DNA from: Dictyostelium discoideum
Lineage: Eukaryota
DNA length: 64,000 nucleotides
Direction: 5' to 3'
Assembly: GCA_000004695.1 (NCBI GenBank)
Contig: CM000151.3
Coordinates: forward strand, 2,336,001 to 2,400,000
The stretch's first letter is position 1, and each line of letters starts with the position of its first letter. A model generated the notes under the pieces. That model saw nothing but the letters and a program-made list of their open reading frames with translations, was not told the DNA's origin and searched no databases. This document shows, one piece after another, positions 2,302-30,904 of the stretch. The position numbers and the translations under genes were made by a program.

Positions 2302-2335
<34 letters not shown>

Positions 2336-2467
2336 TTTTTTTTTTGGTAACGGTCCTAGTTTCGTATTTTTTTATTCTTTTCCCATAAGTGCGCTTTTCT
2401 TAAAAGATTGAATATAATATATAGATAAATTATAATAAAATAGAAACTCTTTATATTTTATATTACT

Positions 2468-2582
2468 CTCCGTTATTCCTCTGTTAGAGGTGTCATTGTT
2501 TTATATTTTATATAACAACACTATTATTCCTCTGGTAATATAAAATGTAAAACAATGGCACCTCTAACAGAGGAATAACGGT
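2468..2582. repeat. Long near-perfect inverted repeat (about 45-nt arms, 25-nt loop) forming a hairpin in intergenic DNA.
   Basis: Arm 1 (2468-2512) is ctccgttattcctctgttagaggtgtcattgttttatattttatat. Arm 2 (2538-2582) is atataaaatgtaaaacaatggcacctctaacagaggaataacgg. The inner 23 nt ccgttattcctctgttagaggtg and cacctctaacagaggaataacgg are perfectly complementary. Confidence 0.7.
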
Positions 2583-2674
2583 GTTGTAATAGTATAAAGG
2601 CACCACAATATAAAAATTAGTGGAATAATAGAGACCATTTTAAAACTCACATGCATTATTATAATTATTATTAT

Positions 2675-2722
<48 letters not shown>

Positions 2723-2934
2723 CAACATGTAAACTTAAGTTACCAGAATCAGTGCTTCCAAATATAATATCCTTTGACCAATTCATATAATTAATTACAA
2801 TTTTAATTTTAAATACCAACATATTTAAAACTGCATATAAAAAAAAAAAAATAAATAAATAAATAATACTACATTTTAAAATTAAACTTCATAAATAAAA
2901 CTAATTAAAAATGGATAAACACTTATTAATCAAT

Positions 2935-2953
2935 TAAAATAATAATAATAATA

Positions 2954-3025
<72 letters not shown>

Positions 3026-3050
3026 TAATAATAATAATAATAATAACAAC
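2935..3050. repeat. (AAT)n microsatellite, intergenic.
   Basis: Direct reading of about 38 AAT units with a few ATA/ACA variants. Confidence 0.9.
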
Positions 3051-3144: not shown

Positions 3145-5351
<2,207 letters not shown>

Positions 5352-5745
5352 ATTATAAAATTTTATAATTTTTTATTGTTTTTAATTGGTGAAATTATTT
5401 TTTTTAAAAAAAAAGATTTTTTAGATTTTTTATTTTTTAAAAAATATAAATATCTCTAGAAATCTACAAACTGTTGACATAATGAAAAAAAAAAAAAAAA
5501 AAAAATCAAAAAAAATAAAATATTGCGTAATTGATTCTAAAATATCATATTTTACTCTTAAAAATATCCAAATTATTTGAAAAGGTTTTTAGAATTATAA
5601 TTCTTTGCTTTTTTTTATTGGTATGATTAAAAAAAAAAAAAAAAAAAATACAAAAAATGTGAATAATATCATAAAAAATATTATTTTCATATTTTTATTT
5701 TTATTTTTTTAATCATATTTTTTTTATTCATATTTTAATTTTTAT

Positions 5746-5779
<34 letters not shown>

Positions 5780-5940
5780 CAAATCAATAAAAAAATTAAA
5801 ATATGAATAAAAAAAATATGATTAAAAAAAAAAAAAAATAAAACCAAGAAATTCTTTAATATTAAAAAAAAAAATCATTAGTTGTGTTTAACATCACTAA
5901 TGATTATTATTATTTTTTCAATACAAAGGGACAAAAAATT

Positions 5941-6030
5941 CAAACAAGCACCCCAAGTTAAATTAATATGTAAAAAAAAAAAAAAAAAAATCCTCACATA
6001 TTAATTTAACTTGGGGTGCTTGTTTAAATT
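5941..6030. repeat. Perfect 30-bp inverted repeat (hairpin) with an A-rich 26-nt loop, followed by a small second stem-loop (cgtattaaatacg) and a T-run.
   Basis: caaacaagcaccccaagttaaattaatatgt (5941-5971) against acatattaatttaacttggggtgcttgtttaaa (5998-6030). Stems are GC-richer than the surroundings. Confidence 0.7.
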
Positions 6031-6065
6031 TCTTGTGTCGTATTAAATACGAGTGTTTTTTATAG

Positions 6066-17563: not shown

Positions 17564-18565
17564 TTATTGACAACCAAAGATTTGGAGTAAACCTGGAAGA
17601 GCGCCTTGCATACCTTTACCAACAGCAACAAAAGACCAATTGTTTGGATTTGATGGATCACGATAAACTTCACCAGCAATGAGGGCAGTGTTTGGACCAC
17701 CTTCTTGAGAGAGATCGTAACGACAGATATTTCTACCAGTTTCTTGATTGGCAACACGAATGAAAGCTCTTGGTACCATTGTAAAGTTTTGTCTTCTTTC
17801 ATCGGCTAAATGAATGGTGACAGCGAAAACCAAACGAGTGACGTCTGGTGAAACTGCTTGTAAGTTTACGAGGACAACTTCATCATCACCTTCACCTTGA
17901 CCTGTTAAATTATCACCTTGATGAGAAACAGAGTTATCTCTTGATACCTTGTTATTGTAGAAAATGAAATCTTGTGAGGTTCTAACTCTACCTTGTGCAT
18001 TCAACATGAAAACAACTGCATCCAAATCGAATGGTGCAGTTGGTGTGGTGTTTACATCCCAACCTAAACCAATTGTTAATTTTCTAAGAGTTGGATCTTC
18101 TTTAGTTAATGAAATTTGTTGATTCTTTACTAATGAAATACCTGCACCTCCTGGTGGTGGTGGTGGTGCGCCATATTGTCCTGCTGGTTGTGGTGCACCA
18201 TATTGTCCTGCTGGTTGTGGTGCACCATATTGTCCTGCTGGTTGTGGTGCTCCGTATTGACCGGCTGGTTGTTGTTGTGGTGGTGCTCCATATTGACCGG
18301 CTGGTTGTTGTTGTGGTGGATAACCTCCTGGTGCTCCTGGTGGTGGTGGAGTTGGATAACCTCCTGGTTGTTGTGGTGCTCCAGTTGGTGGTCTTTGTTG
18401 TTGTTGTGGTGGATAGCCTCCTGGTGTTTGTGTAGTATTAGATGGTTGTGGTGGTAAAAATTGATTAGCTTGTGGGTTTGGGTTTGATACACCCGGTGTG
18501 GATGATGGTTGTCTATAATAATTATTATTACCTTGTGAACCAGATGGTGGTGGTGGGTTATACAT
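17564..18565 (-). CDS. TerD-domain protein of the Dictyostelium CABP1 (cAMP-binding protein, capA/capB) family. N-terminal Pro/Gly/Tyr/Gln-rich repeats plus a C-terminal TerD/tellurite-resistance-like domain. Single exon.
   Basis: N-terminal GGYPPQQQ and 5x PAGQYGAPQ repeats (27-bp DNA repeats at about 18175-18300). The C-terminal domain ([22 protein letters not shown]...[16 protein letters not shown]...DEVVLVNL...FAVTIH) matches the TerD fold described for CABP1. Confidence 0.8.
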
Positions 18566-28354: not shown

Positions 28355-30904
28355 TTGCGAACAGTCATGGTCTCAAATAAAAATCTTTTACCAATTATCT
28401 ATATTTTTTTTATTATTTTATATTTCGGTGACGTTGCTAAATCTCAATACTTTCCACTAGATAAAGGTGCCACATGTCAAAAATATAGGGGTGATAGTCC
28501 AGGGATCCAGTTATGTGATGGCTTTTTATCAAATCCAAGTTAGTAGTTTATTTTTTTTTATTTTTTTATTATGGGATGGCTCTTTATCAAATCCATGTTG
28601 TTAGTTTTTTTTTTTATTAATTTTCTTTATTTTTATAAATTTTTTTATATGTTTTAAATCTTTGTGTAAAAAAAAAAAAAAAAAAAAAAAAAGATAGTAT
28701 TTATATAAACTCAACATCAAGTCAAGAAGCTATTCAAGCACAAGGTAATTTAGTTCGTCAATATATTAATTTCTATAAATCATTCGAATCTTGTAAAAAT
28801 CCTCGTACTTTTGCTTTACTGTGTGCTTTTGTAAGTAATTAAATTTTCTTTTTTTTTTCTATTTATATCTCACATTTATTAATTACTTTTTTTTATTTTT
28901 TTATTTTTATTTTTAGCTTTTTCCAGAATGTGAAAAATATACAGATCCAGTTTCAAAAGTAACCTATGCATATCCAATTTTACCTTGTTATAACAATTGT
29001 TTAAATATGACAACATCATGTCAAATTTCAACATCTAGGTTAAGTTGCGCAACTAAATATACATTTGAAAATATTTCTTATTCAGTATTTCCAAAAAATA
29101 CAACCACCTATCAAATTGATAGTTTAAGCTATACAAATACATGTGAAAACACAGATCTTATTGCAAATTCTCAAAATACATCAATTCAACAATGTTTTGA
29201 ACCTTTAGTTTATCATGTTTCAACTGATGAAATTCATGATAAATCAATAGGTTATATATTCCCATCTACAAATACAACTTGTGTAGTGGGATGTCCTGCA
29301 CCATTGTCTGTATTTTTTTTATTATTTTAATATACTTTTAATTTTTTTTATAACTCTCTCTCCCCAATTACATTATATTAATAATAAATTTATTTTCACA
29401 ATATATTTTATTAACTTATAAAGATATTATGCAAATCAATGGAGGAATATATATAGATTATCAGATGTATTATCAATTTTATCATGTATATTAACATTAT
29501 TTTTAGTAATTACATTGGGAATTATTAACCCAAAAGTTTCAAGATTCGATAAAATCAATGTTATGTTGTTATCCAGTATTTTCCTTCAAGCATTTTCTGG
29601 TGCATTAATGACCTTTAATGGGACTGAAAATACATTATGTCCAGAAGATGGACGTTTTGCTTCATATATAGATAGGATGTGTGTTGCAACAGGTAAATTT
29701 TTTTTATAGAAAAAAAAAAATAAATAACCTTATATATTTATTTTATTTTAACTAATCAAATTTAAAAATTAGGATTTCTTTTACATGGATCATCACTTTT
29801 AGTAGTTCAATGGTGGTGTGTACTCTCTTTTGAAGTATGGTTTACAATTTTCCAAGGTAAATTATTATTTTATTATTAATTATTATTAATTATTTATTAG
29901 TTATATTAATTATAATTATTATTAGCTATTATTAACTATTATTAACTATTACTAATTATTATTAATTATTATTAATTATTTATTATTAATTATTGTTTTC
30001 TCTAAAAATAATAAAATATAATTTATTTTAAATATTTAAATTATAGTTGGAAAAAAACAAAAAGATAGATTTATTTATTATTTAGTAGCATCATTAATTA
30101 TAGCATGGATACCACCAATTGTGTCAATATCAAAGAATGAATATTCAGGTGGACCAGCAAATCCATTTTGTTGGTTAACAACTTTTAACTATAGAAGGTT
30201 TGCATTTTGGTTGCCAATGGGTATATTTTTATGTTTAGGTGGTGTATTTTTAATTCTTTTAATGAGAGAAATTTATGTTGTAAGTATTTATTTTATTAGA
30301 AATTCACTTTTTTTTTATATTTATTAATGTTTTGAAAAAATAAAAAATAAAAAAATAAAAAAAGATTGTATCTGGTAATGTCCAATCAACAAAAGAATCT
30401 AGATTTAAAGTATTGAAAATGGAAGCAAAACCAATTATTAGTTTAATTATGTATTTTTCTTGTCTTTTATATTTATTTATTTATGATCAATGGATTAATA
30501 ATCATATGCACGTTTATACCGATTCCATACCATCTTATGCACTATGTCTTTTAACAAGTACTTCCACCAATGATTGTCTATTAAAGGCCCCAGATATTAC
30601 TGGATTAGGTTATTTTATTTACAGTATTAGAGTTTTTGGTGTTTATGCATTTATCATTTATGGTATTTCCAAGAAAACCCTTCAAATTTGGAAATATAAC
30701 TATTTCGTTGTATTCATTGGACAAAAGATTGAACAATTCACAAATGCAACAACAACTGCAAAATCTTCAAATTCTAATAACTCTTCAACTACAAATAATA
30801 TTTCAGTAAAAGCTTCCTCAAATATGGAATATGAAACTAGACAGGAAAATGAAAATGGAGACAGTCAATCTGTTGAATTAGATTCAAATTCTGATGCTCT
30901 ATAA
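28355..30904 (+). CDS. Frizzled/smoothened-like (Fsl family) receptor, paralog 2 (signal peptide, Fz CRD, 7TM). About 7 exons: 28355-28538, 28694-28830, 28917-about 29306, about 29423-29692, about 29771-29848, about 30041-30288, about 30367-30904.
   Basis: MRTVMVSNKNLLPIIYIFFIILYFGDVAKS (signal). CQKYRGDSPGIQLCDGF...CKNPRTFALLCAF, PECEKYTDPVS...LPCYNNCLNMTTSC (CRD). Then TM helices. The C-terminal exon (KPIISLIMYFSCLLYLF...GLGYFIYSIRVFGVYAFIIYG...KTLQIWKYNYF) is collinear with the gene at 3145-5351 (KPILNIVLIYFSFVYIF...SLGYFIYCIRIYGIYCFFLQG...RAFKIWKRSIVF). Confidence 0.75.
28518..28606 (+). repeat. Tandem duplication (about 33 bp x2, 3 mismatches) of the 3' end of Fsl paralog-2 exon 1 together with its 5' splice site, lying in intron 1.
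   Basis: gatggctttttatcaaatccaagttagtagttt (28518-28550) against gatggctctttatcaaatccatgttgttagttt (28574-28606). A second 24-bp tandem duplicate ataaaatgatcaaatcaattttttt lies at 28257-28312 just upstream of the ATG. Confidence 0.8.

What the first reader, a model, noticed from the sequence alone, without database searches (positions are those of the whole stretch)
2468..2582. 115-nt near-perfect hairpin (45-nt arms) in the intergenic region downstream of the TFIP11-like gene
The arms are 45 nt with only about 2 mismatches, the inner 23 nt are perfect, and the loop is 25 nt. The loop itself contains a third partial copy of the arm core (tattcctctgg). Its size and near-perfect pairing make it a candidate miRNA or small-RNA precursor, a foldback element or a regulatory structure. 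Nothing in the protein-coding annotation explains it.
Basis: seen in the sequence. Interest (0 to 1): 0.55.

Follow-up and report, generated by a model that had tools for sequence, protein, structure and literature searches.

The report
Hairpin made by a flipped minisatellite
The 115-nt hairpin is real, but it is a young, lineage-specific by-product of a 74-bp inversion inside a 50-nt tandem repeat that lies just downstream of a conserved small-RNA-type promoter element in Dictyostelium discoideum; it is not a known microRNA gene, though it could be a newborn one.

Summary
Window 2470-2513 pairs with 2538-2581 (44 bp, two G.U wobbles on the + strand, 24-nt loop; RNA MFE -67.8 kcal/mol, z = -16). 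The window is Dictyostelium discoideum. The TFIP11-like gene is on the minus strand, so the hairpin lies about 290 nt upstream of its ATG, not downstream.

In a divergent 'D. discoideum' assembly (L185, about 93% coding identity) the same locus holds about five head-to-tail 50-nt units and no long hairpin. Reversing window 2464-2537 restores a collinear 2.5-unit array. The arms are therefore two neighbouring repeat units, one flipped, and the 'third copy' in the loop is the head of another flipped unit. D. citrinum and D. purpureum lack the whole locus.

A DUSE octamer (TCCCATAA, 2381-2388, + strand) sits at a suitable distance upstream. It lies in the best-conserved part of the D. discoideum-specific intergenic DNA (93-100% identical to L185).

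The hairpin has the size and stability of D. discoideum pre-miRNAs but is absent from the three miRNA catalogues I could search. Expression could not be tested.

Verdict: a real, explained and moderately interesting structure of young origin. Function as a hairpin is unproven.

The parts
2470..2513 (+). Left arm of the hairpin. It is one 50-nt repeat unit in reverse orientation, lacking its last 5-6 nt.
   Evidence: Pairs with 2538-2581 over 44 bp. nhmmer unit profile hit 2512-2467 on the minus strand, E = 4.9e-15. In register with the L185 units.
2514..2537 (+). 24-nt loop. It is the truncated head of a second reverse-orientation unit and holds the 'third partial copy' TTATTCCTCTGG.
   Evidence: Direct-repeat family D8. 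Weak nhmmer hit 2537-2516 on the minus strand. Unit register.
2538..2587 (+). Right arm (2538-2581) plus the unit tail. It is one complete 50-nt unit in forward orientation.
   Evidence: nhmmer hit 2538-2587 on the plus strand, E = 1.8e-17. Collinear with the last L185 unit and the shared 3' flank.
2464..2537 (.). Inferred inverted segment of 74 bp, about 1.5 units.
   Evidence: Reversing it in silico gives a TRF-detectable 50-nt array (2.5 copies, score 194) that the present sequence lacks. It also raises the global alignment score to L185 from 277 to 362.5.
2450..2463 (+). Left copy of a 14-nt inverted repeat (TTTATATTTTATAT) that borders the inverted segment. Its partner is ATATAAAATGTAAA at 2538-2551.
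   Evidence: 13 of 14 positions complementary. Direct-repeat family D7.
2381..2388 (+). DUSE-type octamer TCCCATAA, 82 nt before the first paired base. It predicts a start of transcription near 2441-2451.
   Evidence: One of 3 WCCCAYAA matches in 64 kb, and the other two lie in coding sequence. The roughly 60-63 nt spacing rule comes from PMC7919456 and PMC3188802. Chance of such a site at a suitable position is about 0.002.
2371..2445 (+). Conserved island around and downstream of the DUSE.
   Evidence: 93-100% identical to L185 in 30-nt windows, against 20-80% for most of the intergenic region. 68 of 69 positions identical in the core.
2304..2347 (+). T31-G-T10 run followed by GG. It resembles the T-rich motif plus G described at D. 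discoideum pri-miRNA start sites and is an alternative promoter candidate.
   Evidence: Sequence. Motif description in PMC6161686 section 2.8. This is weak evidence because T-runs are common in this genome.
2588..2641 (+). 3' flank shared with L185. It looks like a degenerate unit (GGCACC..CCAC-loop-GTGG..GAATAA) and ends in GAGACCATTTT, the first T4 after the stem.
   Evidence: Alignment to L185. 77-90% identity for 2583-2627, falling to 67% for 2613-2642. T-run table.

Best explanation
The hairpin is a young, lineage-specific foldback produced by a 74-bp inversion (window 2464-2537) inside a short array of 50-nt tandem repeats.

SHOWN: In the ancestral arrangement, still present in the divergent strain L185, the units lie head to tail downstream of a conserved DUSE promoter-like element, and the array folds only weakly. 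In the window lineage about 1.5 units were flipped. One flipped unit now faces the remaining forward unit, which gives 44 bp of pairing. The head of the second flipped unit forms the 24-nt loop. The two imperfect positions in the stem are A/G differences that already exist between units.

INFERRED: The flip probably happened by exchange or template switching between the 14-nt inverted repeat TTTATATTTTATAT / ATATAAAATGTAAA that now borders the segment. The DUSE island is a working promoter for a non-coding transcript that runs into the repeats. The long stem itself is not a selected, conserved element. If RNA polymerase II reads through it, the RNA would be a near-perfect 44-bp hairpin and so a Dicer substrate (a proto-miRNA or hairpin-siRNA locus). 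If RNA polymerase III is used, the T4 runs that the inversion brought onto the + strand (2456, 2499, 2506) would stop transcription before the hairpin is complete.
For: - Structure real and extreme.
- L185 has 4.9 direct copies of a 50-nt unit at the syntenic site, with the same DUSE block and the same 3' flank, and no long inverted repeat.
- Undoing the inversion restores the 50-nt periodicity (TRF score 194) and improves the alignment to L185 (277 to 362.5).
- The A/G variants at the two wobble positions are shared with L185 units u2 and u3.
- A 14-nt inverted repeat sits at the borders.
- The unit occurs only at this locus in all DNA available.
- The locus is absent from D. citrinum (syntenic intergenic region about 260 nt) and from D. 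purpureum.
- A closely related second D. discoideum assembly is identical across the region.
- DUSE position, rarity and conservation.
- The L185 array folds at only -0.20 kcal/mol/nt.
- Not in the published miRNA lists that could be searched.
Against: - No expression data could be consulted, so transcription from the DUSE or the T-run, the polymerase used, and any small RNAs are all untested.
- The direction of the change is inferred from one outgroup arrangement (L185). The nearest species that could polarise it, D. citrinum, lacks the locus, so an inverted ancestor that L185 later resolved and expanded is not strictly excluded.
- The 6 nt at the left junction (TACTCT) do not match the unit, so the event was not a clean reciprocal flip.
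- The conserved DUSE island could instead be a cis-element of the divergently oriented TFIP11-like gene about 200 nt away.
- Avesson 2012, the source of many ddi-miRNAs, is not held in the library and could not be searched directly.
Confidence: 0.7

Rival explanations
1. It is a genuine but very young miRNA or hairpin-siRNA gene. A Pol II transcript from the T-run/G site near 2346 or from the DUSE folds into the 44-bp stem, and the DrnB/RbdB microprocessor dices it into 21-nt RNAs that act through an Argonaute.
For: - Size and folding energy per nucleotide lie within the range of published D. discoideum pre-miRNAs.
- D. discoideum miRNAs are almost all species-specific, and relatives often have a shortened orthologous intergenic region lacking the whole locus (PMC11014262). 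That is the pattern seen against D. citrinum.
- A T-rich run followed by G, as described at pri-miRNA start sites, lies 124 nt upstream.
- Both imperfect positions are G.U on the + strand, the strand that carries the promoter candidates.
Against: - Absent from the miRNA and candidate tables of three small-RNA studies, one of which also lists candidates that failed curation.
- The stem has no true mismatch. One of the three criteria sets used in Edelbroek 2024 requires at least one, and a fully paired candidate was rejected there.
- The hairpin is not conserved in L185.
- No target could be sought.
Confidence: 0.18
2. It acts at the DNA level. The 50-nt units, each with the small palindrome CCTCT-AAC-AGAGG and an invariant 28-nt core, are protein-binding sites or an enhancer array for a neighbouring gene. 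The long palindrome matters as a cruciform or as a rearranged site array.
For: - The 28-nt core CACCTCTAACAGAGGAATAACGGTGTTG is identical in almost all units of both lineages, while the A/T-rich part varies.
- The locus lies 200-400 nt upstream of the TFIP11-like ATG.
- The degenerate 3' unit keeps a stem through paired changes, CCTCT/AGAGG becoming CCAC/GTGG.
Against: - D. citrinum and D. purpureum have the same neighbouring gene without any such array.
- Homogeneity among units is also what concerted evolution of a minisatellite produces.
- No binding factor is known and none could be tested.
Confidence: 0.07
3. It is a foldback transposon or MITE (for example of the thug type) inserted in the intergenic region.
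For: It is a near-perfect inverted repeat with no coding capacity. Thug-S elements in D. discoideum are known to carry multicopy miRNA-like loci.
Against: - The arms are homologous to tandem units at the same locus in L185.
- No second copy in 64 kb or in the related loci.
- No target-site duplication: the flanks are TACTCT and TGTTGT.
- The thug consensus itself could not be compared.
Confidence: 0.03
4. It is an assembly artefact, such as a chimeric read or a fold-back sequencing artefact.
For: Palindromes of this kind can arise from library artefacts.
Against: A closely related second assembly with 5 mismatches elsewhere in 8.2 kb is 100% identical across the region. The structure has a coherent evolutionary explanation.
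Confidence: 0.02

Closest known systems
D. discoideum pre-miRNA hairpins (ddi-mir-1176, -1177, -1179, -1183, -7096, -7097, ...), processed by DrnB and RbdB
   Same: - Intergenic hairpin of about 110 nt folding at -0.59 kcal/mol/nt.
- Species- or lineage-specific, with the locus missing from the shortened orthologous intergenic region of a sister species.
- A T-rich run followed by G lies upstream.
   Different: - No small-RNA evidence, and not listed in any catalogue searched.
- The stem is fully paired, whereas miRNA duplexes normally have at least one mismatch.
- Preceded by a DUSE, which has not been described for pri-miRNAs.
- Built from minisatellite units.
Proto-miRNA or hairpin-RNA loci born by inverted duplication (the plant model of Allen et al. 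2004; animal hpRNA endo-siRNA loci). Recalled from my own knowledge.
   Same: A near-perfect long stem created in one step by a DNA rearrangement. It is evolutionarily young and not conserved, and would give heterogeneous siRNA-like products if transcribed.
   Different: The duplicated material here is a local tandem repeat, not a fragment of a target gene. No similarity to the neighbouring genes was found, and no target is known.
DUSE-dependent non-coding RNA genes of Dictyostelia (Class I RNAs, spliceosomal snRNAs)
   Same: The octamer TCCCATAA matches [AT]CCCA[CT]AA, lies on the strand that reads into the repeats, fits the roughly 60-nt rule for a start just before the repeats, and is conserved between lineages.
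   Different: The Class I 11-nt motif CCTTACAGCAA is absent with up to 1 mismatch allowed. There is no Rfam snRNA or other hit. The downstream sequence is a repeat array and not a compact 40-65-nt RNA.
Minisatellites with internal inversions, or palindromes formed by template switching
   Same: 50-nt period; copy number differs between lineages (about 2.5 against 4.9); an inverted block is bounded by short inverted repeats.
   Different: It sits directly downstream of a conserved promoter-like element, and the unit core is unusually G+C-rich for this genome (arms about 30% against 15% for the intergenic region).

Membership tests
Canonical miRNA gene (miRBase high-confidence criteria as used for D. 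discoideum in PMC6161686 and PMC11014262) | Hairpin precursor with folding energy below -0.2 kcal/mol/nt and at least 60% of the duplex paired | tested here: met
   -67.8 kcal/mol over 115 nt = -0.59 kcal/mol/nt, with 44 of 44 positions paired including 2 G.U.
Canonical miRNA gene (miRBase high-confidence criteria as used for D. discoideum in PMC6161686 and PMC11014262) | [quoted passage not shown] | not testable with these tools
   No small-RNA read data are available. The arm sequences are absent from the tables of Liao 2018, Edelbroek 2024 and Meier 2016.
Canonical miRNA gene (miRBase high-confidence criteria as used for D. discoideum in PMC6161686 and PMC11014262) | Dependence on DrnB and RbdB | not testable with these tools
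   Needs mutant small-RNA libraries.
Canonical miRNA gene (miRBase high-confidence criteria as used for D. discoideum in PMC6161686 and PMC11014262) | At least one mismatch in the duplex (the MirGeneDB-type criterion listed in Edelbroek 2024, Supplementary Table 3) | tested here: inconclusive
   There are no true mismatches on the + strand, only two G.U pairs. The minus strand has two A.C mismatches. The outcome depends on where a duplex would be cut.
Rfam RNA families | Score at or above the family's gathering threshold | tested here: not met
   No hits at gathering score over 64 kb. The best sub-threshold hit is mir-3910, 60.6 bits against 95, on both strands, which is a generic match to a perfect hairpin. 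Nothing on the L185 array.
DUSE-dependent ncRNA gene | [AT]CCCA[CT]AA about 60 nt upstream of the transcription start, on the transcribed strand | tested here: inconclusive
   The motif is present at 2381-2388, is conserved in L185, and has a chance probability of about 0.002. The transcription start itself is unknown, so the spacing cannot be confirmed.
Class I RNA (Dictyostelia) | Conserved 11-nt motif CCTTACAGCAA next to a short terminal stem, in an RNA of 40-65 nt | tested here: not met
   No match with up to 1 mismatch anywhere in the window. The unit's CCTCTAACAGAGG matches only 6 of 11 positions ungapped (by inspection).
Foldback transposon or MITE (e.g. thug-S) | Multiple dispersed copies and a target-site duplication | tested here: not met
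   Single locus in the window and the related loci, and no duplication at the flanks. The genome-wide copy number could not be measured.
Minisatellite with an internal inversion | Arms homologous to head-to-tail units at the same locus in a relative; reversing the segment restores the tandem periodicity; short inverted repeats at the breakpoints | tested here: met

The most novel reading that the evidence does not exclude
A natural 'shRNA gene': an snRNA-type DUSE promoter, not the T-rich Pol II promoter of all known D. discoideum pri-miRNAs, drives a short transcript whose body became a near-perfect 44-bp hairpin in a single step, by inversion within a tandem repeat. This would create a new small-RNA-producing locus in the main D. 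discoideum lineage only. It would be a caught-in-the-act example of small-RNA gene birth and a second promoter class for Dicer substrates in Amoebozoa.
Probability: 0.12. Interest if true: 0.7.

Novelty: new member of a known kind. Interest (0 to 1): 0.35.

Why it matters
Dictyostelid miRNAs turn over very fast, and how new hairpins arise is an open question (PMC11014262). This locus shows one concrete, reconstructable route. A single small inversion in a minisatellite turns a weakly structured repeat into a stem of pre-miRNA size, next to a promoter element that is already conserved. If the hairpin is transcribed and diced, comparing strains with the hairpin arrangement (window, L003) and the tandem arrangement (L185) would be a natural experiment on the birth of a small-RNA gene. 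If it is not, the locus is simply a structural polymorphism, and a caution that very strong hairpins in AT-rich genomes can be rearrangement by-products.

Tried and rejected
1. Rfam, gathering and permissive thresholds, on the window and on the L185 array: only generic sub-threshold miRNA-model hits on both strands.
2. tRNA or tmRNA: none in the window.
3. Class I RNA: the 11-nt motif is absent.
4. Exact 17-mer scans of the metagenome and prokaryote genome collections: 120+ and 61 single hits, close to my rough estimate of about 70 chance matches for a 17-mer in the 596-Gb genome collection. None extends beyond 19-28 nt. These collections are not expected to hold Dictyostelium DNA, so they say nothing about copy number in the genome.
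5. Full-text and supplement searches for arm k-mers in DNA and RNA alphabets: no relevant hit.
6. Avesson 2012 (PMC3446702), Larsson 2008 (PMC2413156) and Hinas 2006 (PMC1489274) are not held.
7. I thought the third DUSE-like site (28569, minus strand) headed a paralogous ncRNA sharing GGCACC..TAGTGGAA..GAGACCAT with the hairpin's 3' flank. The local alignment score of 28 is no better than shuffles (mean 26.3) or other tiles of the window, and the site lies in exon 1 of a frizzled-like gene on the other strand. Rejected.
8. The DUSE-like site at 18470 lies in a Pro/Gln-rich coding repeat. Rejected.
9. The AX4 protein P0009 could not be located by the look-up of encoding contigs, so AX4 coordinates were not obtained.
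10. Similarity between hairpin 1 and hairpin 2 or their flanks: none by BLAST.

Full report

Yes. Window 2470-2513 is the reverse complement of 2538-2581 over 44 positions. The only exceptions are T.G at 2493/2558 and 2504/2547. The loop is 24 nt (2514-2537).

As RNA, 2468-2582 folds at -67.8 kcal/mol against -17.5 +/- 3.1 for dinucleotide shuffles (z = -16.2; 0 of 200 shuffles as good). With DNA parameters and more flank, z = -11.8, and about 14 extra imperfect pairs extend the stem outwards.

The arms are 44 nt, not 45, the loop is 24 nt, not 25, and the 23-bp perfect run is at the base of the stem. The description is otherwise correct, including the partial third copy of the arm core in the loop.

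A brute-force scan of the whole window for hairpins with arms of at least 18 nt (up to 2 mismatches) and at least 5 G/C per arm found only this one and a second at 5931-6036. All other long inverted repeats are A/T low-complexity sequence.

**2. Where is it?**

The window is 22.6% G+C. The left-hand gene encodes the G-patch/TFIP11-type protein of Dictyostelium discoideum, with 100% identity to P0001. The AX4 entry in the same cluster is named 'Septin and tuftelin-interacting protein 1 homolog' and has two accessions on the 8.48-Mb chromosome 2 record. From my own knowledge, AX3/AX4 carry a large chromosome-2 duplication, which would explain the two accessions.

That gene is on the minus strand. 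Exon 1 (MNIEGDDEEFYNFNG) starts near 2175. The next gene to the right is frizzled-like, also on the minus strand, and stops near 3145. The hairpin therefore lies about 290 nt upstream of the TFIP11-like start codon, not downstream of that gene.

**3. What is around it?**

A perfect match to the Dictyostelium upstream sequence element (DUSE, [AT]CCCA[CT]AA) lies at 2381-2388 on the + strand, 82 nt before the first paired base. DUSE is the putative promoter element of Class I RNAs, spliceosomal snRNAs and other ncRNA genes. [quoted passage not shown] That predicts a start near 2441-2451, about 20-29 nt before the stem.

Only three such octamers occur in the 64 kb. The other two lie in coding sequence and are chance matches. 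From the composition of the local intergenic DNA, the chance of a DUSE at a suitable distance on either side of the hairpin is about 0.002.

A T31-G-T10 run followed by GG at 2304-2347 also resembles the 'T-rich stretch then G' motif reported at pri-miRNA start sites (PMC6161686). Such runs are common in this genome, so this is weak evidence.

**4. Comparative evidence**

I fetched the syntenic region from other assemblies through the TFIP11-like protein.

- **L003**, a second D. discoideum assembly, is 99.5% identical to the window over 8.2 kb, with 5 mismatches. It is 100% identical across the hairpin region. This argues against an error specific to one assembly, and the arrangement is shared by at least two genomes of the main lineage.
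- **D. citrinum** (about 90% identity in the flanking coding DNA) has only about 260 nt of A/T-rich sequence between the two orthologous genes. It has no hairpin, no DUSE and no repeat unit.
- **D. purpureum** has a different upstream neighbour and also lacks all three.
- **L185** is an assembly labelled D. discoideum but only about 93% identical in coding DNA. It has the locus in a different form. The same DUSE block is followed by 4.9 head-to-tail copies of a 50-nt unit (...ATATAAAATRTAAAACAATGACACCTCTAACAGAGGAATAACGGTGTTG...; TRF 92% matches, score 423) and then the same 3' flank. All units have the orientation of the window's right arm, and there is no long inverted repeat.

**5. Reconstruction**

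Put in register, the window's right arm plus tail (2538-2587) is one complete forward unit. The left arm (2470-2513) is one unit in reverse orientation. The loop (2514-2537) is the head of a second reverse unit.

Reversing 2464-2537 (74 bp) in silico gives a sequence in which TRF finds a 50-nt period (2.5 copies, score 194). TRF finds no such period in the present sequence. The global alignment score to L185 also rises from 277 to 362.5.

The inverted block is bordered by a 14-nt inverted repeat: TTTATATTTTATAT at 2450-2463 and ATATAAAATGTAAA at 2538-2551, complementary at 13 of 14 positions. This is the footprint expected of an inversion by exchange or template switching between short inverted repeats.

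The two wobble positions in the stem correspond to A/G differences that also distinguish L185 units u2 and u3. The arms are therefore two different old units, not a fresh copy of one.

A profile HMM of the unit finds it only at this locus in the window, L003 and L185. It is not found elsewhere in the 64 kb or in the D. citrinum and D. purpureum loci.

The left junction carries 6 nt (TACTCT) that do not match the unit, so the event was not perfectly clean.

**6. What does this say about function?**

The long stem is not conserved. The L185 array folds at only -0.20 kcal/mol/nt and a single unit at -8 kcal/mol. So the hairpin as such is a recent product of rearrangement, not an element maintained by selection across these lineages.

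What is conserved is the promoter-like island. Window 2371-2445 is 93-100% identical to L185 in 30-nt windows, and 68 of 69 positions match in the core. Most of the intergenic region is 20-80% identical and the neighbouring coding DNA about 93%. The only comparably conserved stretch lies right next to the TFIP11-like start codon.

I infer that a DUSE-driven non-coding transcription unit exists here and that the repeats form its body.

In L185 the DUSE strand is free of T4 runs for about 300 nt, from +85 to +386. In the window the inversion placed T4 runs at 2456, 2499 and 2506. A Pol III transcript would probably end before the hairpin is complete, although how many Ts stop Pol III in Dictyostelium is not known to me. 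Only a Pol II transcript would contain the full stem.

**7. Comparison with known things**

- **Size and energy** (115 nt, -0.59 kcal/mol/nt) lie within the published range for D. discoideum pre-miRNAs (83-133 nt; -0.43 to -0.70).
- **Evolutionary pattern** is also typical. [quoted passage not shown]
- **Catalogues**: the arm sequences are absent from the miRNA and candidate tables of Liao 2018, Edelbroek 2024 and Meier 2016 and from all searchable full text. I confirmed that those supplements do hold mature miRNA sequences.
- **Rfam**: no family reaches its gathering score. The sub-threshold hits (mir-3910 and others) occur on both strands and reflect generic perfect pairing.
- **Class I RNA**: not a member, because the 11-nt motif is absent.
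- **MITE or foldback transposon**: does not behave like one, being a single locus without a target-site duplication and with arms homologous to local tandem units.

**8. Verdict**

The hairpin is real and statistically extreme, and its anatomy is explained by a 74-bp inversion inside a 50-nt minisatellite downstream of a conserved DUSE.

I put about 0.85 on this origin. I put about 0.7 on the fuller statement that the stem itself is a young by-product and not a selected, established small-RNA gene. About 0.18 goes to a genuinely active young miRNA/hpRNA locus.

Expression data, which I could not access, would settle this quickly.

Interest is moderate. The case is neat and reconstructable and could illustrate hairpin birth in a lineage known for rapid miRNA turnover, but nothing yet shows that it does anything.

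Noticed in passing
window 5928-6039: A second near-perfect hairpin of complex sequence lies in the next intergenic region. Its arms are 41 nt with up to 2 mismatches, with a 30-bp perfect core and an A-rich 24-nt loop. RNA MFE is -51.7 kcal/mol on the + strand (z = -12.8) and -62.3 on the minus strand.

Unlike hairpin 1 it is kept as a hairpin in the divergent strain L185 (-53.3 kcal/mol) despite 8 substitutions. These include one compensatory pair (C5954-G6013 to A-T) and two changes that repair mismatches. It is absent from D. citrinum and D. purpureum, has no DUSE nearby, and is not in the miRNA tables searched. It is a better candidate for a conserved hairpin RNA than the finding itself.
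   Followed up: partly
window 2470-2581 and 5931-6036, relative to the gene at 3145-5351: The two hairpins flank the frizzled-like gene almost symmetrically, about 564 nt beyond its stop codon and about 580 nt before its start codon. Both have a 24-nt loop under the same scan definition. No sequence similarity between them was found. This may be coincidence.
   Followed up: partly
L185 (GCA_054859385.1, JBTAPF010000011.1), whole locus: This assembly is labelled Dictyostelium discoideum but is only about 93% identical to the window in coding DNA, compared with about 90% for D. citrinum and 99.5% for L003. It may represent a cryptic species or a very deep lineage.
   Followed up: no
window 28569-28576 (minus strand) and 18470-18477 (minus strand): Two more DUSE-like octamers. 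Both lie in protein-coding sequence: exon 1 of a second frizzled-like gene on the + strand at 28355-28543, and a Pro/Gln-rich repeat. They are chance matches. An apparent resemblance of the first to the hairpin's 3' flank was not significant.
   Followed up: yes
window 5696-5838: A 48-nt-arm inverted repeat made almost entirely of A/T (2 G/C per arm) lies just upstream of hairpin 2. It is low-complexity sequence and probably not meaningful.
   Followed up: no
window 2719-2822 (minus strand): A short ORF fragment (...VINYMNWSKDIIFGSTDSGNLSLHVDI...) lies in the D. discoideum-specific part of the intergenic region. It is only about 63-87% identical to L185 and is not annotated in L003. It may be a decayed gene fragment.
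   Followed up: no
window 2937-3046, 2304-2345 and 2677-2717: A long (AAT)n microsatellite and two T-runs of about 41-43 nt make up much of the extra intergenic DNA that D. discoideum has relative to D. citrinum.
   Followed up: no
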